Shown in pieces: positions 4,418 through 24,948 of a stretch of 64,000 nt of DNA. The DNA is from Thermoplasmata archaeon. GTDB lineage: Archaea > Thermoplasmatota > Thermoplasmata > Lutacidiplasmatales > UBA184. Position numbers and translations under genes: made by a program. The notes beneath the pieces were generated by a model. That model saw only the letters and a list, made by a program, of their open reading frames with translations. It searched no databases and was not told the DNA's origin. Within the stretch, counting starts at the first letter, position 1. Every line of letters starts with the position of its first letter. The stretch covers positions 24,531 to 88,530 of the forward strand of contig JBAQJJ010000030.1 of the NCBI GenBank assembly GCA_049300255.1, given 5' to 3'.

Positions 4418-6004
4418 GTGTCGATCCCAGGTGGCGCCCCGCTACCGCCAACAGGTTCTGGAAACACCGAAATCGATCGGATCCGATCGATCGTTGCGGC
4501 CTACTTTCCGGTCTACGAGACCCGGGTAACCCCGCAGTCCCTGCTGCTCGTCGTCCACGTCGACCCGCCGACGCTCGAAGCGAAGTTTGACCAGTTGCGG
4601 CAGGAGCTTACGCGGCGCGACTACATCGGAGCGATCCGCTACGACAAAGGAGAGTACTTCCTGGAGATCGCCCGCCGCCCTCCGATCCGACCATACGGTT
4701 TTTGGGTCAATCTCGCCCTCCTGGTGGCGACCTTCGTTACAACGGTATTCGCGGGGGCGTTCATTTGGCTCGCCTACGTGGGTCAGACAACGCTTACGCT
4801 CGCTGATTTTGCGAATGGCGCCCTCTACTTCGCCGCCCCCGTCATGACCATCTTGGGGCTCCACGAACTCGCGCATTACGTGATGGCGCGTCGCCACCAT
4901 GTCGCGGCTTCGCTCCCGTACTTTGTCCCGGTCCCGCCCCCGTACCTGATCTTCGGGACGTTTGGTGCGTTCATCAGCATTCGCGAACCGATTCCCGACA
5001 AGAAAACGCTGCTCGACATCGGTGCTTCGGGCCCTATCGCCGGATTCGCTGTGTCGATCCCGATCGCCATTGCCGGCATGTTCCTCTCGGCCCATTCGAG
5101 CCCGCCCGCCCTTTCCGCCTGCGGCCCCGTCATCCTGGGCGTACCGTATGGGAACCTGCTCTTTGGCACCTCGCTCTTCTGGGATTTCTTGGCCCTTTTC
5201 ATCCCGGGGGCCAACCAGAATCTCCACCCGCTCGCAATCGCCGGTTGGGTGGGCATTCTCGTGACGGCGATCAATCTCCTGCCCGCCGGCCAGTTGGACG
5301 GGGGGCACGTATTCCGCGCGCTCTTCGGCGACCGCGCCCGCTACGTGAGCTACGCCGCGGTCCTCCTCCTGTTCGGTCTCGGGTTGATCTTCTTCTACAC
5401 CGGCTGGTTCATCTTCGCCATCCTCATCCTGCTGCTCGGCGTGCGTCACCCTCCGCCCCTCAATGATATCAGCAGACTCGATGTGAAACGCTACGCCGTT
5501 GGGGGTTTGGCCCTCGCGATTCTTATCACAGGGTTTGTTGTGGTCCCGATCTCGACCCCGCTCGGGAGTATCGGCATTCCTTCCGCGGGCTCGGTGCACG
5601 TTCCCATCCCGGCCGGGTATCAAATGGCCGACAATCTGACGTTAAATTTCACGAATCAGGATCCGGTGCCGCACGGCTTTCTCTTTTCGACCTCGATCTC
5701 CTCCGTTACCACTACGGTGAACAACCAAACCATGCCGCTCAACGGTACTGCTTTAGCTCGGTTCATTGCTAATTCGAGTTGGATCTTCTACCTGCCCAGT
5801 GGCGTCGTCACTACCGCCGCGAACGCCGGAAACGTAACGATCCCCAGCGACCTCTATTCCGCGGTCGATGGGGGCGCGCATGGCCGACTCATCGCGACGT
5901 ATCTGAACCGTCAGCAAGGAGCCGTCACAATCACGATCACCGTATCGGTGATTTGTCCCCCCAGCGGAGCCACGCCGGTGAGCGCCACGTTCACGGCGTC
6001 GTAG
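4418..6004 (+). CDS. site-2 protease family (M50) intramembrane metalloprotease with extra C-terminal extracytoplasmic domain
   Basis: HELAHY zinc motif inside a TM helix and the NLLPAGQLDGGH second motif. Multiple TM segments. The C-terminal ~140 aa are rich in N-X-S/T. Confidence 0.8.
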   Translation: MSIPGGAPLPPTGSGNTEIDRIRSIVAAYFPVYETRVTPQSLLLVVHVDPPTLEAKFDQLRQELTRRDYIGAIRYDKGEYFLEIARRPPIRPYGFWVNLALLVATFVTTVFAGAFIWLAYVGQTTLTLADFANGALYFAAPVMTILGLHELAHYVMARRHHVAASLPYFVPVPPPYLIFGTFGAFISIREPIPDKKTLLDIGASGPIAGFAVSIPIAIAGMFLSAHSSPPALSACGPVILGVPYGNLLFGTSLFWDFLALFIPGANQNLHPLAIAGWVGILVTAINLLPAGQLDGGHVFRALFGDRARYVSYAAVLLLFGLGLIFFYTGWFIFAILILLLGVRHPPPLNDISRLDVKRYAVGGLALAILITGFVVVPISTPLGSIGIPSAGSVHVPIPAGYQMADNLTLNFTNQDPVPHGFLFSTSISSVTTTVNNQTMPLNGTALARFIANSSWIFYLPSGVVTTAANAGNVTIPSDLYSAVDGGAHGRLIATYLNRQQGAVTITITVSVICPPSGATPVSATFTAS

Positions 6005-13443: not shown

Positions 13444-14025
13444 TTATCCGGGCCCTCCCCATAGACCGATGTTCGCAGCAAACGCGTAGGTCCCGGGCTG
13501 CGGGGGAAGTTGGATACTGAGGTCCCACGAGTAACACTCCAAACAAAAGTGATTCCAATCGGCGAGGACGTTGACCACGAGGAAGTGGGGAGTCAGGCTC
13601 ACGTAGATTCCGCCGACCTCGGCTTCGACCGGACCGGTCTGAGTCAGATTGACGAGAACCCAACACGAAATGACCGAACCCGAGGGGTACGTTCCATTGA
13701 CGCTGGGACAAAATCCGGGTCCGACGGCTAGGGGGGAAACGAGCGGGGGCGAGACGCCCTCCGACTGATTATACCCGACCCAGTCGGCGGACCAGTCCGT
13801 CGAGAGCACCATCACACGACCGATCGGTCCAGAGGGGCTCGCGAGGACAAAGACTCCGAATCCCCCGAGGAACACAAGCGCGGCGATCCCTACCGCGAGG
13901 GCCACGGCCGTCATTTGCGACGATGCGGGGGATGACTTCGACGGCGGCGAAGCGTTCGATCCGAGCGGGGCGGCAGGGTGGGTGCCGTCGGGGGCGTTTG
14001 GTCCGGGCACATGTAATTCAGCCAC
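13444..14025 (-). CDS. hypothetical membrane-anchored extracytoplasmic protein
   Basis: Ser/Pro-rich N-terminus, one TM helix (AVALAVGIAALVFLGGFGVFVL), then a Cys-containing domain with N-X-S/T sites. Confidence 0.4.
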   Translation of the reverse strand: MAELHVPGPNAPDGTHPAAPLGSNASPPSKSSPASSQMTAVALAVGIAALVFLGGFGVFVLASPSGPIGRVMVLSTDWSADWVGYNQSEGVSPPLVSPLAVGPGFCPSVNGTYPSGSVISCWVLVNLTQTGPVEAEVGGIYVSLTPHFLVVNVLADWNHFCLECYSWDLSIQLPPQPGTYAFAANIGLWGGPG

Positions 14026-14270
14026 ACACGAGGCTTCAACTTTGTCTCGCCCGTCGAGGCCGGACTTCGACTCCTATAAACCTCCGATAGGCGTCGGATA
14101 CACCGACGACCGCATCCCCAGATCCCGAACGTGGGACGGCATATCTGGGGTGAAAGACCCGACTGGAGATTGGTACCGCGGGCGTCGGAAGGCCCGGGGG
14201 CGCCACGAGCGCCCGGCGGCTGGTCGCGGCTGATCGGCGGGCGCCGCCCAATTAGGAGGGGAATCGCCGC

Positions 14271-15542
14271 CTAGGTGTCGGGCGGGCGCGGTACGACCAG
14301 TTGCCCCCCCTTCCAAACCCGGAGAATTTTTTCGGGTTCGGCGAGGACCGCGATCCGTTTGAGCGGATCCTCCCGCACGACGAGGAGATCCGCGGCGTAC
14401 CCCACGCGCAACTGACCCGAGAGCGGCGCTTGGGGGCCGAGCGTGCGCGGGCCATTCGCCGTCGCGGTCTCGATCGCTTCGCGGGGCGTCATTCCTAGAT
14501 CGTCGACCAGGAGGGGGAACTCCTGACCATTGCCACCCCAGTACGTCGGCGCTGCGTCGCTCGAGCCGAGAGTGTCGGTCCCAAAGGCCATGGCCACCTT
14601 CTTCCGGACGGCGAGCCGCATCGCCTGCCGGTGTTGGTCGATCAATCTGCGACATTTCTCCAACATGAATTCCGGAATCCCCGAATCCTTCCCTGACGCC
14701 ACCAGACGCTTTACCATCCAACGAGTCGGGACCAGGATCGCCCCTTTTTCAAGCATCAGGTCCGCCGATTCCTCGTCAAGATAAGTCCCATGTTCGATGG
14801 TCTTGACTCCCGCATGGAGCGCCGCCATGATCCCGGGCTTGCCATGGCAATGGGCTGCCACGATCCGATCGGCGCGACCCGCCTCCTCTACAATCGTCCG
14901 AATTTCGTGATCCGAGAACTGCTGGTGCTCGGGACTATCTCGGTCGCTCAACACGCCGCCGGACGCACAGATCTTGATGATCGGCGCACCGAGGCGAAGG
15001 ATCTTTCGGACCGCCGCCAGGCAGGCGGGAATCCCGTCACGAGGCCCCGGTAGCTCTCGTTGATTCCGCCAGATATGGACGAACTCGAGGGGAAAGGCAT
15101 GCTCGTCGCCGTGGCCCCCCGTCGGGCTCAACATTGTCCCGGCTCCATAGATGTGGGGCCCGACGACCGATCCGTCGTCGACGGCACGACCGAGGTACAC
15201 TCCGAAACCCCCGAGCTCGCGTACGGACGTGAACCCCGCGCGGAGGACCTTCTCCGCATCCCGCGCCGCACGCACGATGCCTACCCACGAAGAGGTGTAG
15301 ATTTGTTCCTCGAGCCCGAAATTCCGGATCCCTACGAAATGTCCGTGCGTCTCCCAAAGTCCTGGCAACACGGCTGGCACGCTCTCCGTGGTGTCCGACG
15401 GGGCCGCGGGGGGCGCATTTTCGATCGGTCCGGCGTAGGTAATGGTGGCTCCATCAAACACGACGCAACCCCGGGAGATCGGATCCCCGGTTCCCGGAAT
15501 CAAGATGTCGGCCTCGAGCCGGGTTGCCACATTGTCCGGCAC
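14271..15542 (-). CDS. metal-dependent amidohydrolase superfamily protein
   Basis: ETHGHF (HxH) metal motif near the N-terminus, later AAHCHG and the TIEHG..FGTD pattern. Confidence 0.75.
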   Translation of the reverse strand: MPDNVATRLEADILIPGTGDPISRGCVVFDGATITYAGPIENAPPAAPSDTTESVPAVLPGLWETHGHFVGIRNFGLEEQIYTSSWVGIVRAARDAEKVLRAGFTSVRELGGFGVYLGRAVDDGSVVGPHIYGAGTMLSPTGGHGDEHAFPLEFVHIWRNQRELPGPRDGIPACLAAVRKILRLGAPIIKICASGGVLSDRDSPEHQQFSDHEIRTIVEEAGRADRIVAAHCHGKPGIMAALHAGVKTIEHGTYLDEESADLMLEKGAILVPTRWMVKRLVASGKDSGIPEFMLEKCRRLIDQHRQAMRLAVRKKVAMAFGTDTLGSSDAAPTYWGGNGQEFPLLVDDLGMTPREAIETATANGPRTLGPQAPLSGQLRVGYAADLLVVREDPLKRIAVLAEPEKILRVWKGGQLVVPRPPDT

Positions 15543-15714
15543 CTATTCCTTCGTGTTATAGCTTCCTCATCGGCCGCCCCAATTGAGTCAGGGAGAGAGG
15601 TCCCCACGTCTGAGGAACTGGTTCTTCCTGACCACTCGTGCGGATACGGGTCCCGCGGATTCCATTAACGTCGCAGTCGCGCTCGGGGGTTCGCCGCAGC
15701 CGACCGACGCGTGC

Positions 15715-16431
15715 TCAAGGACGCAAGGATCCCGCTCGCACGAATTGCGCGACCGGATCGAGCGTCTGGATGGGTGTATACAAGATCCCCCGTCGATCGC
15801 AGGCGATCGCAAGAGGGGATCGATCGATTGCGAAGACCGTGTCCGCGATCGACGCCGGAGCGATGTCGGCAGGCCCGTCTCCCAAGTACGTGACCGTTCG
15901 TCCCCGAGCTTGGTAGGCCGCTACCAGCGACTGTTTGAAGTTCTTACCCGAAGTTAGCCGAATCTCCTTGCTTCCGACCAGAGGCGCTTTGCGGGGCATC
16001 GACACTCGGAATCGTCGGGCGGTAAATTTGGTCTCCGGACAATAGAGTCGCGGCATCGAGAGCCCCTGACGCCGAAAAGTCTGCCGAATGCAGAAATCAA
16101 TCCCGGCACTCGCCACGACGAACTCCGTGCTCACGCGGCGACACTCATCGAGGAGAGCCGCCATCCCGGGACGAAACTCGGAAAGGGGTGAGAGAAAGTC
16201 CAGAATCTCCGCGCGCGACGAGGCGCGGATCAAGGCAGTTTGCCTCCGTACGCACTCGTTCAAGGTGATCTGCCCGTCCTCGAATAATTCATCGAAGCGC
16301 TCCCAACCGGGCGCGCCGAATCGTTCCATGGTCAACGTTCCGAGGTCGTTCGTGGTAAGCGTTCCGTCGAAGTCCGACACAATGATCGGCCTCGCGCCGC
16401 CTGACTTCCCTGGCACAGCTGCCGGGGACAT
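15715..16431 (-). CDS. HAD-superfamily phosphatase (subfamily IB, MtnX/PSP-like)
   Basis: IIVSDFDGTLT motif I just after the ATG at 16431, and YLGDGPADI motif IV. The track ORF extends to 16500. Confidence 0.6.
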   Translation of the reverse strand: MSPAAVPGKSGGARPIIVSDFDGTLTTNDLGTLTMERFGAPGWERFDELFEDGQITLNECVRRQTALIRASSRAEILDFLSPLSEFRPGMAALLDECRRVSTEFVVASAGIDFCIRQTFRRQGLSMPRLYCPETKFTARRFRVSMPRKAPLVGSKEIRLTSGKNFKQSLVAAYQARGRTVTYLGDGPADIAPASIADTVFAIDRSPLAIACDRRGILYTPIQTLDPVAQFVRAGSLRP

Positions 16432-16533
16432 CGACCTCCTTGTAACAAGGTTTCCACTTGAAAACCGGGAGAACGATCGGACTTCAGATCTCATCTCCAC
16501 AACCTCAAAGAAGGCGCGGGAGATTCGACCGCA

Positions 16534-16905
16534 ATGACCGTGAAGACAGGGCGCGAAGTTCGCGAGCCACGCGGGCGCACGCAGTCGATTCGGGAGGAGC
16601 TCGAGGGGAGACTTTCATCCATCCCAGGATTGACCCGTCGCGCGGCGCGACGGGGTCATGGGAACGCCTACTTCGCCGCCGAACGGGAGATCGTTCACTT
16701 TCATGGGGACCATCGTATGGATGTTCGTTTGACGAGGAAAGCGATCCTCGCGAGGGCGTCCGAGCGGCCGTTCGACGAACGAGTGCGAACTCGAGGTCCC
16801 GCGGCAGACTGGGTGGCAGTTCGCGTGGCAGTAGCACGGGACCTGCACCTAGCTTTGTCCCTCGTCGAGTTGGCAGTCCGCGCCAACACAAAGCCTGCGG
16901 AGTGA
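16534..16905 (+). CDS. hypothetical protein, possibly luciferase-like (DUF5519) family
   Basis: 123 aa. The EIVHFHGDHRMDVRL segment resembles that family as I recall it. Weak call. Confidence 0.4.
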   Translation: MTVKTGREVREPRGRTQSIREELEGRLSSIPGLTRRAARRGHGNAYFAAEREIVHFHGDHRMDVRLTRKAILARASERPFDERVRTRGPAADWVAVRVAVARDLHLALSLVELAVRANTKPAE

Positions 16906-17190
16906 CGAGCTTCAGAGCGTTCGGTTTGGACCTCCGATACCCGCCTTCCGGATCAGCCTTGAGGGGACGGAACGTCGGATGAAGTGCTCGCAGATCCTTC
17001 GCCTACCAATCGAGCGCAGGACACGGCGCCAGATCCTGACGCACGGGCTACTTCATGGCGGCCGGTTCCTTCCTTTCCTGATCAAGGTCCGTAGAGTGCC
17101 CTTCACGTGCGAGCTCGATGCGTCTGAGCCGGCATCGAAGCACTCGACTTTGGGAGCCTCTTTACGCCGGCTTCAATTCCTCCGGTGCTG

Positions 17191-17335
17191 CGGGATTAGG
17201 GGGAGTCGTCGCCCCGGGGGTTCGAGTATCAACAATTTCCAACAGTTTGAGCATGCGGCCAGAATCGAGGGGGGACCCTCCTCTCACAACCCCCTCGTTA
17301 GAAATCGGTCTAAGTAATCGGAGCAACGCCCGAGA
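17191..17335 (-). repeat. degenerate direct repeat, copy 3 of the tRNA-Arg locus (most diverged)
   Basis: Aligns by eye with 18916-19056 over about 140 nt, with roughly three quarters of positions identical. Shared blocks include GGGGGTTCG, GTATCAAC, ATTTCCA and CCCTCGTTAGAAATCGG. Confidence 0.6.
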
Positions 17336-18224
17336 TCGCAGAACCCGCCCCCTTTCCAACGGGCAGTCCCAGGGGACTCGTCGACTTTCCTCGGGCCTTC
17401 ACGGACCACATCAGCGGGATCAGGCCCTCGCCCTCCCTGAGGCGCCAATACCCGTCACGGTCCTGGGTCATGAAAGAGTATCGGCGCCAGTAGCTGAACG
17501 GGTACTCCCGCACCCTCTCAATTCTGAGCCCACTCTTGATCAAAGCAGAAAGGACCCTGGACACCGGATGGATCCAAGAGTAGGTCACCCGGTTTTTCAT
17601 CTTCGTGCTGACTGCGTACGTCCCGTCATACTCTTCTCGGAGCGCTTGAGAACTGAAGTAGGGAATCTTGGGCTCGAGACGGGTCACGGTCGCATCGTTT
17701 GGAAAGACCTCCGCAATCGGATGGTCTTCGAGAAAGTAGAACCGCCCCCCCGGCTTCAGGAACCGCGCGACCACTTCGGCCCATCGATCGACATCGGGGA
17801 GCCAACAGATTGCTCCCTTCGCTGTGTAGACAATATCGAACCGCTCGTCGAGGACGCCGGGGAGGTCGTACAAGTTCGATGGAAGGAATCGAGCTTCGAT
17901 GCCGACCTGCCGCGCGAGTCGTCGGGCCGCTCGAATCGCAGGGGGAGAAAAGTCTACGCCGGTTACCTGGGCTCCTAGGCGCGCCCAGGACAACGTATCG
18001 AGTCCGAAATGGCACTGGAGGTGAAGTAGGGATTTTCCCCGCACGGATCCTAATTCCTTCACCTCTAGCGCTTGGAGTGTGGATTTACCTCGGAGAAAAG
18101 ACGGGACGTCGTAGGAAGCGGAAGCAACGTGCAATGGAACGCTCTCGTCCCACTTGCGGCGATTGACATTCATCCGGCGACGATCGTTCTGCCTCACGAG
18201 CTCGGCAGACAGTCCCGGCCTCAT
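17310..18224 (-). CDS. class I SAM-dependent methyltransferase
   Basis: LLHLQCHFGLDTL motif I and the VTGVDFSPPAI acidic loop. Start taken at the internal ATG 18224, because the longer track ORF adds a low-quality N-terminus. Confidence 0.7.
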   Translation of the reverse strand: MRPGLSAELVRQNDRRRMNVNRRKWDESVPLHVASASYDVPSFLRGKSTLQALEVKELGSVRGKSLLHLQCHFGLDTLSWARLGAQVTGVDFSPPAIRAARRLARQVGIEARFLPSNLYDLPGVLDERFDIVYTAKGAICWLPDVDRWAEVVARFLKPGGRFYFLEDHPIAEVFPNDATVTRLEPKIPYFSSQALREEYDGTYAVSTKMKNRVTYSWIHPVSRVLSALIKSGLRIERVREYPFSYWRRYSFMTQDRDGYWRLREGEGLIPLMWSVKARGKSTSPLGLPVGKGAGSAISGVAPIT

Positions 18225-18524
18225 AACGATCAGCGGACGGTGTTGATCACCACGGGCGCAGAACTTCGCCGATCCGGTCGGTGCGGATAGTCCAGCAGGG
18301 GAGGGACCTCCGTGCGCTTCGCCGGTCCAACTTCCGCATTGGACGAGGGACAGGTTTGTTTCCCACGGGGGGTCGGGAACAGGACCGCAGTAGTCTTCAG
18401 CGTGAGGTCTAAGTTCCAAAGGGGTAAGTTCGTGACAGAACGCGCTGCTGGGCGATCGGCGCGCCCCATCGAGACACAAGACGCATAACTTAACATTGCT
18501 TTGAGAGTCGAAAAGGGGTAGCTC

Positions 18525-18908
18525 ATGTCAGGCATTAGTGGGATCGAGACCGTCACTGTTGCCGTCAGAGATCAAGAGAAGGCGCTTCGCTGGTTCATAG
18601 ACAAGCTCGGGTTCGAAAAGCGGTTAGATAAGTCGGGCCCAGGCTTCCGCTGGCTCACCGTCGCGCCCAAGGGGCAGAAAGGAGTGGAGGTCCTTCTGGC
18701 TTCGTGGTTTCCGGAAATCGTCGGAAAGAACGCAACGTGGGTGCTTACAACTCCGGATTGTCGACGGACGTACGAGGACCTGAAGGGCCGCGGTGTGACA
18801 TTCCGTGAGCTCCCGGAAGAACGCAGTTCACGCGTCGAGGCAGTCTTCCAGGATTTGTACGGGAATGCGTATGAGTTGGTAGAGCACAAGACACGGAACC
18901 CTCGTTGA
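18525..18908 (+). CDS. VOC family protein (glyoxalase / bleomycin-resistance / dioxygenase fold)
   Basis: 127 aa. It has the typical paired beta-alpha-beta-beta-beta pattern: IETVTVAVRD..ALRWFIDKLGF ... QDLYGNAYELVE. Confidence 0.75.
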   Translation: MSGISGIETVTVAVRDQEKALRWFIDKLGFEKRLDKSGPGFRWLTVAPKGQKGVEVLLASWFPEIVGKNATWVLTTPDCRRTYEDLKGRGVTFRELPEERSSRVEAVFQDLYGNAYELVEHKTRNPR

Positions 18909-18913
18909 ATCGA

Positions 18914-19056
18914 TCGGGCGTGGGGGGACTCGTCCCCCCGGGGGTTCGCGTATCAACGATTTCCAGCGGTTTCCGCGATCGGCCACACCCGAGAAGGAAC
19001 CCCCCCTCACACAAGACCCTCGTTAGAAATCGGCCGACGTAATCGGAGCCGCATCC
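18914..19056 (-). repeat. degenerate direct repeat, copy 2 of the tRNA-Arg locus
   Basis: TCGGGCGTGGGGGGA (18914-18928) is identical to 20830-20844. GGCCACAC (18981-18988) matches 20894-20901. The flank resembles the tRNA upstream TATA region. Confidence 0.65.
18915..18991 (-). pseudogene. tRNA-Arg-derived tRNA-like remnant (no canonical cloverleaf)
   Basis: 77 nt. The ends can still form a 7-bp acceptor-like stem (GGGTGTG / CACGCCC, one G-T pair), next to a GGGGG-N7-CCCCC hairpin. The D and anticodon arms are not recoverable. Confidence 0.45.
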
Positions 19057-19080
19057 ACGAGCACTGACCCCCGCTCGTGA

Positions 19081-20556
19081 CTAGGGTGAGAGGGGAGGGC
19101 TTCCGCCAACCGACGGAGGCTTCGCGGGATTCCGGGGAGACTTTGCCCGACGGCGGAGTAGAACAAGTGCCAGTACGGCACCGACGAGCACCACTGCCAC
19201 AATCGCACCGAGAAGCACATATCCTTCGGCAGCGGGGACGCCCAAGAATGTCGCCGTTCCCGAGGTGGCAGTGAAGGAAACCGAGCGATGGATCGCGGTC
19301 CCGTTCACGGTAATCGACCCGCCGCTCAGGTTGGCAGCGTAACCCGCCACTGGACCTAGGCTGAATGAATATGTGCCGTTCGGTTCGGTGAATGCAATCG
19401 TGGCCGTCGTGGATGGGTGGGGCGTTCCGTTCAACGTAACCGTCCAGTTCGTCCCCGAAGGCAGCCCGGTCTCCGAGAACGTGATGGCCGACGAAGGGGG
19501 CGATGGGCATGGTCCACCCATCGCGGTGACATTCGCAGATCCGAAGTTCGACACGTAGATTTGGCAGGTCTGACTGTCGTAGGCAACTCCGTAGGGGTAG
19601 AGGCCTGCCGATACGGTGGCTACTACTGTATCTGTGGTTCCCCGAACGATGGTCACGCTACCGTTTCCTTGCCCGCCCGCGGTCCCGGCCCCGGAGTCTG
19701 CCACGAACAAGTCCCCCGTCGCGCTGTCGTAGGCAACGTCCAAAGGATTGCTGCCCACGGAGATAAAGCCCCGAACCGCGTAGGTCGATGCGTTAAGGAC
19801 AGTGAGACTCGATGAGTACTGGTCCGCGACGAAGAGCTCGTTCGACTGTGGATCGTACGCCACACCCGACGGGTTAGAGCCCACCGTCACGTTCTTCACA
19901 ATCGAGGAGTTGACTGGGTCGACGATCTGCACTTCGCCGATGTTCCAGTCGGAGACGACAAGATTACCGGTGGCTCCGTCGATAGCGATTCCATCGGGTC
20001 CGCTGCCGACGGGGATGGTCCCGTCGACGAGGTTGGAAGTCGGGTTGATAACGCTCAACGTGTCGGCACCGTCATTCGTGACGTAGACGGAATTGGTGGA
20101 AGAATCGAACACCAGACCGTGTGGCTCACTTCCAACCGGCACGGTTGATATCACAATTCCCGTCTCAACGTCAATTATCGAAACGTTGTCGGAGCCGAAG
20201 TTCCCGACAAAGAGCTCGTCGTTCATCGGATCTGCTACTGCGTGGCGGGGATTGGTACCCACGGGAATCGAGCGAGACACAGAGTGTGTCGAGCCGTTAA
20301 TCACAGAAATGTTGTCGGAGAGCACGTTCTCGACGTAAAGGTCGCCGGTGCCGCTGTCATAGGCCACACCCCAAGGACCACTTCCGACCGAGATATTTCC
20401 AGCCGTGCGATCCCCCGAGGTCGGTTGTGCCAAGTCGGTAGTTCCGGAACGAATCTGAGAGGCCCAGACCCCGCTCGTGGCCCCATATACCACAGCGCCC
20501 ACAACGATCAGCACAACGAGGGGGCCGACTGTTCGAGGTCGCCTACTAGGAGCCAT
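19081..20556 (-). CDS. YVTN-type beta-propeller repeat surface protein with C-terminal membrane anchor
   Basis: N-terminal signal/TM, then seven repeats of the type LYVxNxxSDNVSVID. An N-X-S/T-rich domain follows, then TM helix LLGAIVAVVLVGAVLALVLL. Start set at ATG 20556, because the longer track ORF abuts the tRNA gene (its start at 20829 lies 2 nt from the tRNA 3' end at 20831). Confidence 0.75.
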   Translation of the reverse strand: MAPSRRPRTVGPLVVLIVVGAVVYGATSGVWASQIRSGTTDLAQPTSGDRTAGNISVGSGPWGVAYDSGTGDLYVENVLSDNISVINGSTHSVSRSIPVGTNPRHAVADPMNDELFVGNFGSDNVSIIDVETGIVISTVPVGSEPHGLVFDSSTNSVYVTNDGADTLSVINPTSNLVDGTIPVGSGPDGIAIDGATGNLVVSDWNIGEVQIVDPVNSSIVKNVTVGSNPSGVAYDPQSNELFVADQYSSSLTVLNASTYAVRGFISVGSNPLDVAYDSATGDLFVADSGAGTAGGQGNGSVTIVRGTTDTVVATVSAGLYPYGVAYDSQTCQIYVSNFGSANVTAMGGPCPSPPSSAITFSETGLPSGTNWTVTLNGTPHPSTTATIAFTEPNGTYSFSLGPVAGYAANLSGGSITVNGTAIHRSVSFTATSGTATFLGVPAAEGYVLLGAIVAVVLVGAVLALVLLRRRAKSPRNPAKPPSVGGSPPLSP

Positions 20557-20830
20557 TTTGAGGCAAAAGCAGTGCCAGGAATGACCATCTCTTGTCCGCA
20601 CAAATACTTTGTATCGCCCGCCTCGAGGGCGCCGAATGCGGCTAATCGATTTCCAGGGACCTAGTTGGGGCCTAGCCCGGCCGGCCTTACAGAAGGGATT
20701 TATTTCTGGACCGCAGGGCGAACACCAGTTTAGCTCCCCCAAACTTAAACGTCGACGCGTCGGTGACTGTCCGCGAAAAATCGACGAAAATGTCCAGGCG
20801 GAATAAACCCTCCGAGGATTCAAATCCACT

Positions 20831-20905
20831 CGGGCGTGGGGGGATTTGAACCCCCGACCAACGGGTTAGGAACCCGCTGCCCTATCCAGGCTAGGCCACA
20901 CGCCC
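20831..20905 (-). tRNA. tRNA-Arg, anticodon CCT
   Basis: Folded by hand into a cloverleaf. Acceptor GGGCGTG/CACGCCC, anticodon stem GCGGG/CCCGT with loop TTCCTAA, T arm GGGGG-TTCAAAT-CCCCC, discriminator G. CCA is not encoded. Confidence 0.9.
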
Positions 20906-20926
20906 CGAGGGGAGTGGCGTCGGGGA

Positions 20927-20938
20927 CCTTAAGAAAAC
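20927..20938 (-). promoter_or_regulatory. TATA-like box upstream of tRNA-Arg (minus-strand GTTTTCTTAAGG)
   Basis: AT-rich element 22-33 nt upstream of the tRNA 5' end. Confidence 0.4.
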
Positions 20939-20972
20939 TTCGATGCCGCTCGTCGAATCCGGCAGCGGTTCT

Positions 20973-22031
20973 TCACCCTTTGCGAGCGAAGAGACGGTCG
21001 TACCGGTGGTCGACATGGTTCACGAGATTGGGGGCCAGCTCTTGCACGATCTCGATCCCTTCGAGATTCGCCTGCAGCGTCGCGAGCACCGGACGTCGGG
21101 GCTCCGGAGTTGAGTCGGACGGCGGAGCGGGAGCGCTGCTCCCCAGTGCCGCGATCAAGAATCTTTCTGCACTCGCCACGTACAAAAACGGAAAGACCCG
21201 ACAGTCGCGGGTGAGGGTGGCAAACAGCTCCTCCGGATGAGTCCCGGGTTTCGGTCGTCCGAGGATCAGATTCACTTGATCCGCGGAGCGGCCCTTGAAG
21301 GCCGGGAGTCGGGAGGGCTCGAGAAATACGCGATGGAGCACCCACCCCCGCGTCAGCAGCTTCTGTTGAGAGAACGGAAGTCCGAGTGGTCCCATCAGAT
21401 GGCCGGGACGACCCTGCTCCTGCCCTACGAAGGGGCGGTGCAAGAGTTCGGCGACGGCCCACGACATCGAGGTGTTCAACGTCCCTGGGGCCGGCCGATC
21501 GTCGTTCTCGCCGTCCGGTCCGGGGCCTCCCAACCCGTGCGGATACGCGAGGGTGCCCGGCATGCCGGCGAGATGGGACCAAAGTCCCTCGAAGTCAAAG
21601 TAGACGGGAATGGAGGGCTGATCTAGCCGCACCGTGATCGATTCATGCCAGGTCCCGAGCTTGAGCTCATCGAACCGATTGGAAATGCGACTCGCCTCCT
21701 CCGGGGTGGGGAGGAAAAAGACGCCGAGGGCGACTTGAGATCCGGCCCAAAGGACGACATTCCCCGGTTCGCGCTGCCACTCCGCTACGAGCTCGGTGAC
21801 ACGATCGACGAAGGGCCGGGCCACGACGAACATGGCGTACGGCAGACCGAACCGTGAGGGATCGGGCACATACCGGTCACGGAGCCATCCTTCTTCGTAG
21901 GCCCGGCGCCGGGCGGCGTGATAGGTCGACCGTGGAATGTCGATCCGTCGTAGGCGCTCCCGTTCCCGGTCGGGTAAAGCCGAGAGCAGCACGGCAATGA
22001 CCCGCGCCTCTGATTCCGTAAGCGCGCGCAC
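20973..22031 (-). CDS. hypothetical protein with two tandem HTH-plus-RAM-like modules (divergent Lrp/AsnC-like regulator?)
   Basis: Both halves show a helix-rich segment followed by GW[LV]..R[YV]..P..[FL] and then a beta-alpha-beta-like segment. Compare EEGWLRDRYVPDPSRFGLPYAMFVVARP with TRGWVLHRVFLEPSRLPAF...NLILGRP. Confidence 0.4.
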   Translation of the reverse strand: MRALTESEARVIAVLLSALPDRERERLRRIDIPRSTYHAARRRAYEEGWLRDRYVPDPSRFGLPYAMFVVARPFVDRVTELVAEWQREPGNVVLWAGSQVALGVFFLPTPEEASRISNRFDELKLGTWHESITVRLDQPSIPVYFDFEGLWSHLAGMPGTLAYPHGLGGPGPDGENDDRPAPGTLNTSMSWAVAELLHRPFVGQEQGRPGHLMGPLGLPFSQQKLLTRGWVLHRVFLEPSRLPAFKGRSADQVNLILGRPKPGTHPEELFATLTRDCRVFPFLYVASAERFLIAALGSSAPAPPSDSTPEPRRPVLATLQANLEGIEIVQELAPNLVNHVDHRYDRLFARKG

Positions 22032-22166
22032 GCAGTCATGCTCCTAATTGCTACGCCCTAGCACGGGGTACAGGGCCCAATGGGGATGGATAAACATGAG
22101 GTTAAAACCCACTCGTCGTCTTGTTCGTCTGGAACTCTCCAATCGAGAATCGGTTCGGAGTCAACG

Positions 22167-23609
22167 ATGCGCGACAAGATTGTGGGACCTACCCAACTAC
22201 TCGTCATGATGGTTGCGGCCCTATTGGTCGTCACCCTGGTCCCGCTTGTCGGGACCGCTGCCGGCGCCTCGATGACCCCGGCGTTTGCGGTAGGCCCCAA
22301 TGCTTGGGCCTACGGAGGTGTGAAGATGATCAATGTCGCGACCCCCACCGCAAATGGGTCGGCGGCCGGATCCGCTTACTACGGCCAGTCTACGGTATTG
22401 AGTCAGAGTGCCGGAGCGAATGGGTCGATCTCCATCGGAGCGCAGCACACCTCGGGAGCCGGAGTCGACGTCACTTACTGTTCGCCCAGCTGCGGCGCGG
22501 CCGTGTATTATGAGGTGATTTGGGACTATCACGTCTGGGAAAATATTACGGCCTTCGCCAACTTCACGAATGACGCACCCATTTCCACGTCTTCGGGCAA
22601 TGCGACCGGACTCGGTCTTCTGAACTCGCACTCGCAATTCGCGGCCAACTTGACGGAATTCCTGGAGGTCGAGCTTCACACTGCAAAGATCACGACTACG
22701 TACTCCCGAAACCTTGCAGTGCAGGTCGCGGGCAGTGCCTCCCTCAACTTCCTCCCGTCGCGCCCCTTGGGCCTCATCCCTGGCAACGTGGCCTCCCTCG
22801 GTACGTGGAGCGACTCCGCTCCGTATTCCGCCGGGTGGGTCTGGTCCGCGTCGTACTACAACCACACCGTCTCGGCAATCGGCAATCATGTAAACCAAAC
22901 GAGCTTCTCTGGAAACGGCTCGATCCCGAACGGGACGATGAATCTCTCGGGAGCCAACGATGGCACGACGATCACGCTCGCCGGCAAGAGTCTGCTGGTG
23001 CTCTCGATCGCTATCTCCGGAGCCCCCTTCGACCTGCGGGACGGCTTCATCCTGATCCCGTCAAGCAGCGACCTTTTCGGCAGCGCGCGGCACGCTTGGT
23101 CGGACTCGCAGTCGGGCTTGACCACAACTCAGCTCGGCAATGTCGACTATTACGCCGGCTCCTCCAATCACATCGGCATCCTAGCCACGCGGCAAGTGTA
23201 CTCCTCGTCTCCCATAGCGGCCAATGCCAACTCGTCGATTAACGGAAGCTTCACTGAGGCCGAACCTCCCGGGCTCCCGAACCTACAGCAAGTAGGGGTG
23301 CAGGGACAACCAGAATCCGTCAATCAGGCGACGCAGAATCAGCAGTGCCTCACGGCCGATTCCTGTTCTCCAAGCGCGGGACCCACGAGCCCCCTGCGGG
23401 AACTCATAGTGGTGGGCGCCGTGATCGGCCTCGTCGTGGTGGGGCTCGCCCTCGTAGTCCAACGCCGGCGCCAGCTCCCCGCGCCCGTCTATCCGAATGC
23501 CCAACTCTACCCCGTGGGATCTCCACTCGCCCCGAATGTGTCCGCCCCGAGGTCCGCGACCGAGTCCCCGAAAGATTCGGACCCCGACCCGCTCGGAAAT
23601 CTCTGGTAA
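22167..23609 (+). CDS. secreted N-X-S/T-rich surface protein with C-terminal TM anchor
   Basis: Signal/TM LLVMMVAALLVVTLVPLVGTAAGA after the ATG at 22167, many NxS/T sequons and C-terminal TM VVGAVIGLVVVGLALVV plus a short tail. Confidence 0.55.
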   Translation: MRDKIVGPTQLLVMMVAALLVVTLVPLVGTAAGASMTPAFAVGPNAWAYGGVKMINVATPTANGSAAGSAYYGQSTVLSQSAGANGSISIGAQHTSGAGVDVTYCSPSCGAAVYYEVIWDYHVWENITAFANFTNDAPISTSSGNATGLGLLNSHSQFAANLTEFLEVELHTAKITTTYSRNLAVQVAGSASLNFLPSRPLGLIPGNVASLGTWSDSAPYSAGWVWSASYYNHTVSAIGNHVNQTSFSGNGSIPNGTMNLSGANDGTTITLAGKSLLVLSIAISGAPFDLRDGFILIPSSSDLFGSARHAWSDSQSGLTTTQLGNVDYYAGSSNHIGILATRQVYSSSPIAANANSSINGSFTEAEPPGLPNLQQVGVQGQPESVNQATQNQQCLTADSCSPSAGPTSPLRELIVVGAVIGLVVVGLALVVQRRRQLPAPVYPNAQLYPVGSPLAPNVSAPRSATESPKDSDPDPLGNLW

Positions 23610-23658: not shown

Positions 23659-24948
23659 TTACGAGGCCGGTCGAAGCGGTCGGGCACGCGTCGCGAGAGG
23701 GTAGCGCAGAATGGCCGCAACGCCTCCAAAAGCTTTCGCGAGCATTTCGCCTTCTTCGCTCTCAGTCGAAATCATGCGCACGGTGGCGCCCGATTGGAGG
23801 GCGCGGCGGAACAGCTGCTCGACGTAGTCCTCGGATTCGGTCGCCGACAGCGTGGGGGCACCGCATTTGGGACACGGCGCATCCAGCACCTTTCCGACCT
23901 CCTCGTCCGACAACGTTCGTTCGAAGGCGTAGCCGCAGGATGCGCACTTGAACGCGACGCGTTTCTTTCGAAGCCCTTCCGAGATGAGCAGCGTGTCGAC
24001 TGCCCCGCCCTCTAACGCGGTCTGCACGTCCTTCTCTCCATACGCCGCCAGTCCGACCTCGGCGCGACGGATCTCGTTCAGCAATCGTTGAACGATCCGC
24101 TTCTCCTCGGTCAGCTCGAGTCCGTGGAGCGTTTGGGTCGCTTTCTCGACCATCTCCTTGAGGCCGTATTCATCCGTGTAACCGACGTCGAAGAGGGGCA
24201 GTACGACCTTCTGCTGAAGTTCGTAGTGGAGGTAGTTCTCCTTGTAGAAGTACTCCTTCGTGGCGCCCGGTCCCCCAATGAGGATCCCCTTCAATTGGTC
24301 CTTCTTCGGCAGAAACAGCTCGTTCGCCATTTCCCCGCATCGAACGAAGAAGTCGTGGGCGGCGTGTTCGATCAACCGTTCGAATCGATGGGCCGACTGC
24401 CCCCCGCGTCCGTGCTTGCTCGGAACGAGCGACTGTTTGTTGCGCAACGCTTCGACACGCTTGCCACGGAGGAAGCCGAGGGTGACCTCGGCGCGGTCCA
24501 TCACGATCAGGCCCCAGAGCTCTGGCTCATGGACCATTGAGATGAGCGGTTCGAGGAAGAACGTGGAATCGCAGCGATACAGGTACGTGTTGAGCGGTTC
24601 GGGAGGCTCAACGATGAACGTGACCGGCTCGGACTTGTCGGCCCCGATTGCCTTGCTCCCAACGAAGAACGCCACGCCGTTCGAGGGCGGCTCTTTGTAC
24701 GCGCGTACGCGGCCCATGATCGACTCAATCGCCCACATGACGTTCTTGCGCGTCGTGCGGCTCTTGATGTTCGAGCTCTGCGCGTACTCATTACGGAGAT
24801 ATGCCATCACGTCCGAGACTTGCTTCTTCGGCGGGACGTAGAGCGAGATCAGCTCTGTTGCACGGCCACGGGCCGCGGCGATCTCATCCAGCTTGCGCTT
24901 GAACGAGTACCGCGCGAGCTGGGCATCCACGTTCGGTTCCGGGCTCAC
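23659..24948 (-). CDS. prf1: peptide chain release factor aRF1
   Basis: NIKS codon-recognition motif (SSNIKSR) and GGQ motif (HGRGGQSA). The C-domain carries a CxxC...CxxC insert. Confidence 0.9.
   Translation of the reverse strand: MSPEPNVDAQLARYSFKRKLDEIAAARGRATELISLYVPPKKQVSDVMAYLRNEYAQSSNIKSRTTRKNVMWAIESIMGRVRAYKEPPSNGVAFFVGSKAIGADKSEPVTFIVEPPEPLNTYLYRCDSTFFLEPLISMVHEPELWGLIVMDRAEVTLGFLRGKRVEALRNKQSLVPSKHGRGGQSAHRFERLIEHAAHDFFVRCGEMANELFLPKKDQLKGILIGGPGATKEYFYKENYLHYELQQKVVLPLFDVGYTDEYGLKEMVEKATQTLHGLELTEEKRIVQRLLNEIRRAEVGLAAYGEKDVQTALEGGAVDTLLISEGLRKKRVAFKCASCGYAFERTLSDEEVGKVLDAPCPKCGAPTLSATESEDYVEQLFRRALQSGATVRMISTESEEGEMLAKAFGGVAAILRYPLATRARPLRPAS

What the first reader, a model, noticed from the sequence alone, without database searches (positions are those of the whole stretch)
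17191..20965. tRNA-Arg(CCT) locus followed by two decayed direct copies of itself that bracket two small cargo cassettes
The intact tRNA-Arg gene sits at 20831-20905 on the minus strand. The 15-mer TCGGGCGTGGGGGGA, which covers its 3' acceptor and T-stem end (20830-20844), recurs exactly at 18914-18928. GGCCACAC from its 5' part (20894-20901) recurs at 18981-18988, at tRNA-like spacing. The flank beyond that resembles the tRNA's upstream TATA region (TTAAGAAAA versus TTAGAAAT). A third, more diverged copy at 17191-17335 aligns with copy 2 over about 140 nt, with roughly three quarters of positions identical by eye. All three copies share one orientation. Between them lie a YVTN beta-propeller surface protein gene (cassette A) and a methyltransferase plus VOC/glyoxalase pair (cassette B). 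Nested repeats of a tRNA locus are what serial site-specific integration or segmental duplication at a tRNA gene leaves behind. No integrase is visible, so these would be remnants. Two 100-nt spot counts gave 58 G+C at 19801-19900 and 67 at 34501-34600, which hints at lower GC inside the cassettes but proves nothing.
Basis: partly seen in the sequence, partly recalled or inferred. Interest (0 to 1): 0.7.

Follow-up and report, generated by a model that had tools for sequence, protein, structure and literature searches.

The report
Integration scars downstream of tRNA-Arg gene
Downstream of a tRNA-Arg gene in a soil archaeon lie two leftover attachment-site scars from mobile DNA that inserted there repeatedly; this is a well-known way genomic islands form, seen here in a little-studied lineage.

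Summary
The repeats are real. Copy 2 (18914-19075) and copy 3 (17190-17350) match at 79% over 135 nt (E=3e-28). Both end in a tRNA-Arg(CCT) 3'-end-like terminus and lie in the tRNA's orientation. They are not decayed copies of the whole tRNA locus. Only the last ~15-28 nt resemble the tRNA, and the upstream "TATA" match fails a shuffle test. The other ~130 nt form a separate conserved arm that also occurs in two sister species.

Homology with both sister species stops at the last base of the tRNA. Homology with one of them stops again ~10 nt past copy 3. That species has an extra 5.3-kb insert followed by a displaced tRNA 3' end plus the window's own tRNA flank. It also has a different gene (an SDR rather than YVTN) between the same flanks. 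The interval 17190-20830 has the lowest GC and the most deviant tetranucleotide usage in the window.

Similar direct tRNA-3' scars follow this tRNA in six genomes. Two further relatives carry a divergent tyrosine integrase directly after it.

Verdict: these are attR-type scars from serial site-specific integration. This is a known kind of feature in soil Thermoplasmata, of modest interest. Whether the integrase-less cassettes can still move is unresolved.

The parts
20831..20905 (-). Intact tRNA-Arg(CCT). This is the integration target (attL side). Its 3' end is the sharp boundary of conserved synteny.
   Evidence: ARAGORN. Rfam tRNA 65.4 bits. blastn homology with L001 and L041 ends at 20831.
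20774..20830 (-). Proximal flank of cassette A (P'-like arm). It contains an inverted copy of the tRNA T arm at 20813-20827.
   Evidence: In L001/L072 the homologous sequence follows a displaced tRNA 3' end 5.3 kb downstream of the tRNA (78% over 82 nt). Inverted repeat I14.
19081..20556 (-). Cassette A cargo: a membrane-anchored NHL/YncE (YVTN-type) beta-propeller protein.
   Evidence: Pfam NHL E=3.5e-17 and YNCE E=4.2e-13. The best database homologues are only about 40% identical. L072 has an SDR gene at this position between the same flanks.
18914..19075 (-). Unit copy 2, read as an attR-type scar. It consists of a ~135-nt conserved non-tRNA arm (18941-19075), a T-stem-like hairpin and a 15-nt exact tRNA 3' end (18914-18928).
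18898..18913 (-). Arm-type motif (TCGATTCAACGAGGGT) at the proximal end of cassette B. It is a direct repeat of the motif inside both units (19016-19035 and 17291-17309).
   Evidence: Approximate motif search: three hits on the tRNA strand, all in this locus, and one elsewhere on the other strand at <=3 errors. Repeat D13.
18525..18908 (+). Cassette B cargo: VOC/glyoxalase-family protein.
   Evidence: Pfam Glyoxalase E=8e-9. An orthologue is present in L072 (84% aa identity).
17310..18164 (-). Cassette B cargo: class I SAM-dependent methyltransferase. Its last ~13 codons run into unit copy 3.
   Evidence: Pfam Methyltransf_11/25/12. An orthologue is present in L072 (81% aa identity). The whole of cassette B is 80.7% identical over 1732 nt.
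17190..17350 (-). Unit copy 3, an older and more decayed attR-type scar. Homology with the sister species L072 ends about 10 nt past its terminus.
13897..17189 (.). Further variable, non-syntenic DNA distal to copy 3: a luciferase-like domain protein (16534-16905 +), a HAD hydrolase (15715-16500 -) and an amidohydrolase (14271-15542 -). No recognisable att scar lies at its far end.
   Evidence: This region is absent downstream of the tRNA in all relatives. Synteny with L041 resumes at 13896. Pfam. The att-core profile finds nothing here.
20973..22031 (-). Conserved core gene bounding the locus on the tRNA's 5' side. It is a fused tandem Lrp/AsnC-like protein, not a recombinase.
   Evidence: 578 homologues, syntenic in relatives. 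AF2 model with pLDDT 72. Foldseek matches to NirDL and Lrp/AsnC regulators.

Best explanation
The 3' end of tRNA-Arg(CCT) is an attachment site for integrative elements in this clade of soil Thermoplasmata. Each integration recombines an element-borne site (attP) with the tRNA, probably within or next to the T-loop. The element supplies a new tRNA 3' end. The old 3' end is pushed downstream, now joined to the element's own arm. Repeated events stack up, with the newest next to the tRNA.

Copy 2 and copy 3 are two such attR-type junctions. Each is ~130-135 nt of conserved element arm, followed by a T-stem-like hairpin and a displaced tRNA 3' terminus. They delimit what remains of two inserted elements: cassette A (YVTN protein) and cassette B (VOC + methyltransferase). 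Cassette B and copy 3 predate the split from the nearest sister species. The recombinase genes have been lost from the window's cassettes, so these are most likely inert scars.

Shown: the repeats, the sharp junctions, cassette differences between species, compositional deviation, and integrase-bearing elements at the same tRNA in relatives.

Inferred: the crossover position, the attP-arm nature of the 130-nt part, and loss of the integrase rather than supply in trans.
For: 1. Synteny with L001 (84% nt identity) and L041 (74%) ends at window 20831, the last base of the tRNA.

2. L001/L072 has, after its tRNA, 5.3 kb of unrelated DNA. A displaced tRNA 3' end follows, joined to the sequence that directly follows the tRNA in the window. 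This is the classical footprint of an insertion.

3. Cassette B plus copy 3 is orthologous in L072 (80.7% over 1732 nt). Homology ends ~10 nt past copy 3's terminus, and different genes follow.

4. Between the same flanks the window has YVTN and L072 has an SDR gene.

5. Direct tRNA-3' remnants lie only downstream of this tRNA in six genomes: window 2, L001/L072 3, L041 1, L013 3, L059 1, L027 1. Most share the motif G(G/A)TAYTCGAACCCCCGGGG just 5' of the T-arm-like part. Identity to the genome's own tRNA starts in or after the T-loop (14-26 nt).

6. Only the 3' tail of the units resembles the tRNA.

7. Interval 17190-20830 has the lowest GC and the highest tetranucleotide deviation in the window.

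8. L019 carries a divergent tyrosine integrase 54 nt after the tRNA (PHROG integrase E=9e-10; Pfam Phage_integrase E=0.13 over the catalytic region). It also has a serine recombinase (Resolvase E=2e-32) and a degraded attR 8.7 kb away. L009 has a 52%-identical integrase at the same place. L001's tRNA-proximal ORF is the C-terminal half of such a serine recombinase (E=6e-25).

9. A 17-nt motif sits in both units and at the proximal end of cassette B, as arm-type sites would.

10. Published precedent: partial tRNAs and degenerate elements accumulate by serial integration at tRNA genes (bioRxiv 10.1101/2020.12.28.424599). tRNA fragments from MGE integration are pervasive in archaea (PMC9897764).
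Against: - No recombinase gene or recognisable fragment lies in the window's cassettes or anywhere in the 64 kb.
- The cassettes are very small (1.7-1.9 kb, one or two ordinary accessory genes), yet both of their ends are kept. Random decay of an ~9-kb element would not obviously produce this.
- The L019-type element does not share the 155-nt arm. The integrase that used this arm is therefore unidentified.
- No free or circular form and no attP were found in IMG/VR, and nothing equivalent turned up in JGI metagenomes.
- No att scar marks the distal end of the variable region near 13.9 kb.
- The few strain-level contigs available show no presence/absence polymorphism.
Confidence: 0.62

Rival explanations
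1. The cassettes are still-functional, non-autonomous mobile units. In this view a family of small elements has the layout [proximal arm]-[variable cargo]-[155-nt arm + tRNA-like core] and lacks its own recombinase. An integrase encoded elsewhere inserts or excises them in trans. Known analogues are cis-mobilisable elements (CIMEs), integron cassettes and integrase-less satellites of tycheposons.
For: - None of about ten cassettes in six genomes carries an intact recombinase, yet the arms are retained.
- The unit has the same sharp 5' boundary in three independent comparisons even though the upstream genes differ.
- The same two flanks enclose different single genes in the window and in L072.
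- Copy 2's 15-nt tail is still identical to the tRNA, whereas its positional counterpart in L072 is not.
- Copies 2 and 3 within one genome are more alike (73-76%) than either is to its positional orthologue (65%).
- The core CGAACCC(C/T)C is invariant in all five units.
Against: - No trans-acting integrase was identified.
- No circular junction, empty site or strain polymorphism was seen.
- The cargo gene has no close relatives elsewhere.
- The orthologous unit pairs have diverged to 65%, below the 81% of the adjacent coding DNA, as unconstrained DNA would.
- Copy 3's tRNA-like tail is badly decayed.
- The equal divergence of both positional pairs (65% and 65%) fits simple vertical inheritance with differential gene loss.
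Confidence: 0.22
2. Copies 2 and 3 are decayed duplicates of the whole tRNA-Arg locus (promoter plus gene), produced by segmental or tandem duplication.
For: - Copy 2's tRNA-like part is 76 nt long, with a potential acceptor stem and T stem.
- GGCCACAC recurs at near-tRNA spacing.
- The 5' body similarity is marginal (p=0.0125 and 0.0345).
- A TATA-like TTTCTAA lies upstream of the tRNA-like part.
Against: - There is no tRNA-model hit at E<=10 and no ARAGORN call.
- The upstream 70 nt show no similarity to the tRNA's upstream region (p=0.82-0.97).
- The 5' body similarity is absent in the L072 and L041 copies.
- The segments between the copies share no homology.
- The junction evidence points to insertion, not duplication.
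Confidence: 0.06
3. The ~155-nt unit is a functional non-coding RNA or cis-regulatory element, such as a tRNA-like sRNA or a terminator/promoter module, that happens to end in a tRNA-like hairpin.
For: The unit is conserved across three species. It contains a TATA-like box and keeps a GGGG-loop-CCCC hairpin.
Against: - Rfam has no match.
- RNAalifold gives an unfavourable covariation term (+1.44) and weak energy.
- Single-sequence folds are no better than shuffles (z=+0.10 and -0.44).
- Copy 3 loses the acceptor pairing without compensation.
- The unit's position relative to neighbouring genes is inconsistent.
Confidence: 0.05
4. The unit is the N-terminal stub of a split, SSV-type ('suicidal') integrase gene whose attP lies inside the gene.
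For: A 65-aa ORF (17162-17359, -) runs through copy 3 into the tRNA-like core in the tRNA's orientation. Similar peptides (LEIVDTRTPG) can be read in the other copies. This arrangement is known in archaea (PMC8371274).
Against: - The ORF has no homologue among 5.8 billion proteins.
- The frame is broken by stops or frameshifts in copy 2 and in the L001 and L041 copies.
- No Int(C) reading frame leaves the tRNA.
- The integrase found in relatives (L019) is intact after integration, so it is of the classical type.
Confidence: 0.03

Closest known systems
tRNA-gene-targeting integrative elements of archaea and bacteria, and the partial tRNA direct repeats (attL/attR) they leave
   Same: - An intact tRNA sits at one junction, with direct repeats of its 3' part downstream.
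- Synteny breaks exactly at the tRNA 3' end.
- Cargo of accessory genes and deviant composition.
- An integrase lies next to the tRNA in intact examples (L019, L009).
   Different: - The window's cassettes have no integrase and are only 1.7-1.9 kb.
- The integrase in relatives is too divergent for Pfam's model to pass threshold.
- The arm (~135 nt) is conserved across three species.
Tycheposon-built genomic islands of Prochlorococcus (bioRxiv 10.1101/2020.12.28.424599)
   Same: - Serial integration at one tRNA pushes older elements further into the island.
- Partial tRNAs and degenerate elements are scattered through the island.
- Cargo consists of adaptive accessory genes.
   Different: - The domain of life and the recombinase lineage differ.
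- No replication-module hallmarks were seen in the window.
- Activity is not demonstrated here.
Cis-mobilisable elements (CIMEs) and accretion at ICE attachment sites; integron cassette arrays.
   Same: Arrays of recombinase-less segments, each bounded by recombination sites, sit next to a fixed primary site.
   Different: - No resident integrase lies next to the array. The neighbouring gene is an Lrp/AsnC-like protein.
- The sites are tRNA-3'-end-like, not attC-like.
- No evidence of current mobility.
SSV/pTN3/pT26-2 'suicidal' integrase partition in archaea (PMC8371274)
   Same: An archaeal host, a tRNA 3'-part target, and trapped elements.
   Different: No Int(N)/Int(C) fragments were found. 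The related intact integrase gene in L019 is not split.

Membership tests
attL/attR scars of tRNA-targeting integrative elements | Direct repeat of the 3' part of the tRNA gene downstream of an intact tRNA, in the same orientation | tested here: met
   Copy 2 has 27 nt at 85%, including a 15-nt exact match. The tail tests give p<0.0005 for copy 2 and p=0.008 for copy 3. All copies are direct and none is inverted.
attL/attR scars of tRNA-targeting integrative elements | Comparative genomics shows the homology break exactly at the att boundary, with insertion or absence in relatives | tested here: met
   Breaks occur at 20831 against L001 and L041 and ~10 nt past copy 3 against L072. There is an extra 5.3-kb insert in L001/L072, followed by a displaced tRNA end plus the window's flank.
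attL/attR scars of tRNA-targeting integrative elements | A site-specific recombinase encoded within the element | tested here: not met
   None was found in the window. The feature is met in relatives at the same tRNA: a tyrosine integrase in L019 and L009, a serine recombinase in L019, and a truncated serine recombinase in L001. The window copies are therefore classed as remnants, not as complete elements.
attL/attR scars of tRNA-targeting integrative elements | Compositional deviation of the inserted DNA | tested here: met
   GC is 0.590 against 0.631 +/- 0.013. It is the most extreme of all same-length windows in both GC and tetranucleotide distance.
attL/attR scars of tRNA-targeting integrative elements | Excision or circularisation, or integration shown experimentally or in reads | not testable with these tools
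   No read-level data were available. No attP-bearing free element was found in IMG/VR, and nothing equivalent turned up in JGI metagenomes.
tRNA gene or tRNA pseudogene (whole-locus duplicate) | Cloverleaf recognisable by a covariance model, with homology over the D and anticodon arms | tested here: not met
   The Rfam tRNA model gives no hit at E<=10. ARAGORN finds only one tRNA. The 5' body similarity is marginal or absent.
SSV-type split ('suicidal') integrase | Int(N) and Int(C) gene fragments abutting the two att copies | tested here: not met
   The ORF through the unit has no homologues. Frames are broken in the other copies, and no ORF leaves the tRNA.
Integron | A resident IntI-type integrase adjacent to the primary site, and attC-type cassette sites | tested here: not met
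   The conserved neighbour of the tRNA has a tandem Lrp/AsnC-like fold. The cassette sites are tRNA-3'-like.
Dispersed repeat / MITE | Many copies at unrelated genomic sites | tested here: not met
   There are no other copies in the 64-kb window or in about 1 Mb of related loci outside the tRNA-Arg downstream region. One distant core-only match was found in JGI metagenomes. The rest of the source genome could not be searched.
Structured non-coding RNA family | Conserved secondary structure with covariation | tested here: not met
   The RNAalifold covariation term is +1.44. Folds are no better than shuffles. Rfam has no match.

The most novel reading that the evidence does not exclude
Soil Thermoplasmata may harbour a family of miniature, recombinase-less gene cassettes. 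Each would have a proximal arm, one or two cargo genes, and a discrete ~155-nt arm ending in a tRNA-Arg 3'-end mimic. A divergent tyrosine integrase encoded elsewhere would insert and exchange them in trans at the tRNA-Arg(CCT) T-arm. The result would be an integron-like or CIME-like cassette array in an archaeon.
Probability: 0.2. Interest if true: 0.6.

Novelty: new member of a known kind. Interest (0 to 1): 0.3.

Why it matters
The result identifies tRNA-Arg(CCT) as a recurrent integration hot spot in an uncultured clade of soil Thermoplasmata. It also explains why accessory genes differ there between sister species.

It yields three usable by-products:
- An attachment-site signature: `TTCGAACCCCCGGGG`, a hairpin, then the tRNA 3' end.
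- A conserved 155-nt arm.
- A divergent tyrosine integrase that Pfam does not recognise at threshold. This could help annotate mobile elements in archaeal metagenome bins.

It is also a caution for annotation. tRNA-like fragments of this kind are junction scars, not tRNA pseudogenes. If the small cassettes proved to be mobilisable in trans, the locus would be an archaeal counterpart of cassette-array systems. That would be more interesting, but it is not shown here.

Tried and rejected
1. Unit as the stub of a split SSV-type integrase. The 65-aa ORF has no homologue and the frames are broken in the other copies.

2. The conserved 352-aa gene next to the tRNA as a resident recombinase (integron-like model). 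It has no Pfam, NCBIfam or PDB sequence match. The AF2 model plus Foldseek show a tandem Lrp/AsnC-like fold.

3. Unit as a structured RNA. Rfam, single folds and RNAalifold were all negative.

4. Unit as a dispersed repeat. There are no copies away from the tRNA-Arg downstream region in the window or in 63+ loci.

5. Viral-contig scan for the unit core. The four hits match only the pattern itself, inside what I read by eye as a phage portal-type coding sequence, so they are chance matches.

6. Metagenome scan. It gave a single distant core-only match, L070.

7. Close homologues of the YVTN cargo, sought to trace cassette spread. None exceeds about 43% identity over most of the protein.

8. Strain-level polymorphism. 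Contigs carrying the identical neighbouring protein have the same arrangement.

9. An older scar at the distal island boundary near 13.9 kb. None was found.

10. Relatives of the L019 integrase in PLSDB plasmids, INPHARED phages and IMG/VR. None was found.

11. Structure prediction of the L019 integrase.

12. A regex prefilter for tyrosine recombinases missed the L019 integrase, which I spotted by reading the ORF.

Full report
**Organism and locus.** The window encodes aRF1 (23659-24948, -), RFC, Kae1 and other archaeal housekeeping genes. Its closest relatives are soil Thermoplasmata metagenome bins. The only tRNA in the 64 kb is tRNA-Arg(CCT) at 20831-20905 (-).

**Checking the observation.**
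- The stated repeats exist.
  - The 15-mer at 20830-20844 recurs at 18914-18928. The match extends to 27 nt at 85% (blastn E=0.003 in the window).
  - GGCCACAC recurs at 18981-18988.
  - Copy 3 matches copy 2 at 79% over 135 nt (E=3e-28). A profile extends both copies to about 160 nt.
- The gene content is as described, and no integrase domain was found in 29 ORFs of the window.
- The GC hint is real. Interval 17190-20830 has GC 0.590, the lowest of all same-length windows (0.631 +/- 0.013). It also has the largest tetranucleotide deviation.
- The claim that the copies are copies of the tRNA locus does not hold.
  - In shuffle tests only the last 28 nt resemble the tRNA (copy 2 p<0.0005, copy 3 p=0.008).
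  - The 5' body is marginal (p=0.0125 and 0.0345) and is not similar in the sister-species copies.
  - The upstream 70 nt, which include the supposed TATA resemblance, show no similarity (p=0.82-0.97).
  - Neither ARAGORN nor the Rfam tRNA model at E<=10 sees copy 2 or copy 3.
  - Copy 3 does not fold like a tRNA.

**Comparative evidence.** I fetched 63 syntenic loci.
- The tRNA and the 352-aa gene upstream of it are conserved across the clade. What follows the tRNA is not. The GH15 core gene resumes at +1.9, +4.0, +5.7 and +7.4 kb in four genomes.
- Homology between the window and its two nearest relatives stops at 20831, the last base of the tRNA. These are L001, with aRF1 96% identical, and L041, with 92%.
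- In L001, and in its longer equivalent L072, the order after the tRNA is as follows:
  1. 5.3 kb of unrelated DNA.
  2. A displaced tRNA 3' end joined to the sequence that directly follows the tRNA in the window (78% over 82 nt).
  3. An SDR gene, where the window has the YVTN gene.
  4. A copy of the 155-nt unit.
  5. After about 180 nt, an orthologue of the whole of cassette B including copy 3 (80.7% over 1732 nt).
  6. Different genes. The homology ends about 10 nt past the tRNA-like terminus of copy 3.
- The termini of the tRNA and of copy 3 are therefore sharp recombination junctions. At copy 2 the boundary is less clean, because L072 has those ~180 extra nt.
- L041 has one unit copy, 3.3 kb after its tRNA, with other cargo (peptidase A4, MBL-fold hydrolase). 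Synteny with the window resumes at window 13896.

**A recurrent pattern.**
- Scanning every locus for partial copies of its own tRNA tail found direct remnants only downstream of the tRNA. L013 has three within 3.3 kb, and L059, L027 and L001 have one each. None is inverted.
- Most remnants share a motif just 5' of the T-arm-like part, G(G/A)TAYTCGAACCCCCGGGG. With the T arm it forms a near-palindrome. Identity to the genome's own tRNA begins in or after the T-loop (14-26 nt).
- A profile of this core hits only tRNA-Arg genes and these remnants in about 1 Mb of loci.
- This layout is what attR junctions look like: an element-derived P arm, the crossover region, then the displaced original tRNA 3' end.
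- A 17-nt motif (CGATTTCTAACGAGGGT) lies inside both window units and again directly after copy 2's core. It therefore sits at both ends of cassette B, as arm-type sites in an attP would.

**Recombinases.**
- The cassettes in six genomes carry accessory genes and no intact recombinase. The genes include YVTN, VOC, methyltransferases, SDR, SnoaL-like, an ArsR-SRPBCC-DUF1801 operon, peptidase A4 and MBL.
- Two further relatives hold what looks like the intact form.
  - In L019 a 459-aa ORF starts 54 nt after the tRNA. PHROGs calls it an integrase (phrog_1, E=9.4e-10). Pfam's Phage_integrase model matches only weakly over the catalytic region (E=0.13).
  - By eye the ORF shows ...AHTGVRP......RPYVLRSY... 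and ...LGHDTGIAGRY....
  - L009 has a 52%-identical homologue in the same place.
  - The L019 element also encodes a serine recombinase (Resolvase E=1.7e-32). It ends 8.7 kb from the tRNA at a degraded tRNA 3' fragment.
- The ORF next to the tRNA in L001/L072 is the C-terminal half of such a serine recombinase (47% identity, E=6e-25). It is truncated about 25 nt from the tRNA. It is a decayed recombinase at the expected position.
- The L019 element does not carry the 155-nt arm. The integrase that used this arm is therefore not identified.

**Rivals tested.**
- *Split SSV-type integrase stub.* A 65-aa ORF runs through copy 3. It has no homologue in 5.8 billion proteins, and the frame is broken in the other copies.
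- *Resident recombinase next to the tRNA (integron-like).* The conserved 352-aa neighbour is a fused tandem Lrp/AsnC-like protein (AF2 pLDDT 72; Foldseek matches to NirDL and Lrp/AsnC regulators).
- *Structured RNA.* There is no covariation (+1.44) and no Rfam match. Folds are no better than shuffles.
- *Dispersed repeat.* There are no copies away from this locus in the data I could search. One distant core-only match turned up in JGI metagenomes, and the viral hits were chance matches.
- *Segmental duplication.* The cassettes share only the unit and the motif.

**Inert scars or live cassettes?**
- Several points favour a family of small elements that keep both arms and swap cargo.
  - The unit has the same sharp 5' boundary in three independent comparisons, although the upstream genes differ.
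  - The same flanks enclose different single genes in two species.
  - Copy 2's 15-nt tail is still perfect.
  - Copies 2 and 3 are more alike (73-76%) than either is to its positional orthologue (65%).
- Other points fit vertical inheritance and differential loss.
  - Both orthologous unit pairs have diverged equally, to 65%. That is below the 81% of the adjacent coding DNA, as unconstrained DNA would be.
  - Copy 3's tail is badly decayed.
  - The cargo gene has no close relatives.
  - The few strain-level contigs show no polymorphism.
  - No circular form or trans-acting integrase was found.
- I put inert remnants at about 0.6 and trans-mobilisable cassettes at about 0.2.

**Comparison with what is known.**
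- Partial tRNA genes created by integration are pervasive in archaea (PMC9897764).
- Islands built by serial integration at one tRNA are described for Prochlorococcus tycheposons (bioRxiv 10.1101/2020.12.28.424599). There, newer elements push older ones inward and leave partial tRNAs and degenerate elements.
- Archaeal integrase classes are reviewed in PMC8371274.
- The present locus fits this known kind. What is new is the host lineage, the particular att signature and arm, and a divergent integrase family in relatives.

**Verdict.** The repeats are real. The description of the repeats as decayed copies of the tRNA locus is not. This is a new member of a known kind, with interest about 0.3.

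Noticed in passing
L019 14121-15500 (+) (= L075 11212-12591); homologue at L009 11589-12491: A 459-aa tyrosine integrase lies directly after tRNA-Arg(CCT). It is too divergent for Pfam (Phage_integrase E=0.13) but is recognised by PHROG phrog_1 (E=9e-10). No relatives were found in PLSDB, INPHARED or IMG/VR. It may represent an undescribed archaeal integrase lineage.
   Followed up: partly
window 20973-22031 (-): A conserved 352-aa protein always sits upstream of tRNA-Arg(CCT) in this clade (578 homologues, no Pfam or NCBIfam model). It is predicted to be a fused tandem Lrp/AsnC-like protein resembling the siroheme decarboxylase NirDL/AhbAB. Its function is unknown.
   Followed up: partly
window 20813-20827 vs 20842-20856; L001 14102-14130; L070 4541-4600: T-arm-like half-sites (GGGGGTTCGAAT and its complement ATTCGAACCCCC) recur on both sides of the att cores, including an inverted T-arm copy right after the window's tRNA. 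They are possibly recombinase-binding sites.
   Followed up: partly
L001 14126-14570 (= L072 11225-11669): A truncated serine recombinase (C-terminal half only, 47% identical to the intact L019 gene) lies about 25 nt from the tRNA 3' end. The N-terminal catalytic domain is missing exactly at the junction.
   Followed up: partly
L013 15188-18491: Three direct tRNA-3' scars lie within 3.3 kb. They delimit very small cassettes: a SnoaL-like protein; a DUF1801-SRPBCC-ArsR operon (named by eye, not scanned); and a membrane protein. This is the densest array seen.
   Followed up: partly
L010 15345-16256; L033 14408-15520: Other mobile elements occupy the same hot spot downstream of the tRNA: an IS481-family transposase (Pfam rve E=4e-20) in L010 and an IS110-like ORF (by eye only) in L033.
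   Followed up: no
L070 (JGI Ga0187771_10022521) 74-2887 and 4541-4581: A similar att-like remnant in an unrelated, lower-GC contig sits about 1.7 kb downstream of a 937-aa ORF that looks like a STAND NTPase with helical repeats (read by eye, not scanned). This may be defence cargo at a related integration site.
   Followed up: no
window 17310-17350: The methyltransferase ORF of cassette B reads about 13 codons into unit copy 3 before its stop. In the sister species the called gene ends where the unit begins.
   Followed up: no
window 22080-23609 (+) and 13444-14025 (-): Two predicted secreted or membrane-anchored proteins near the locus have no family assignment. The interval 22001-23000 also has low GC (0.596).
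   Followed up: no
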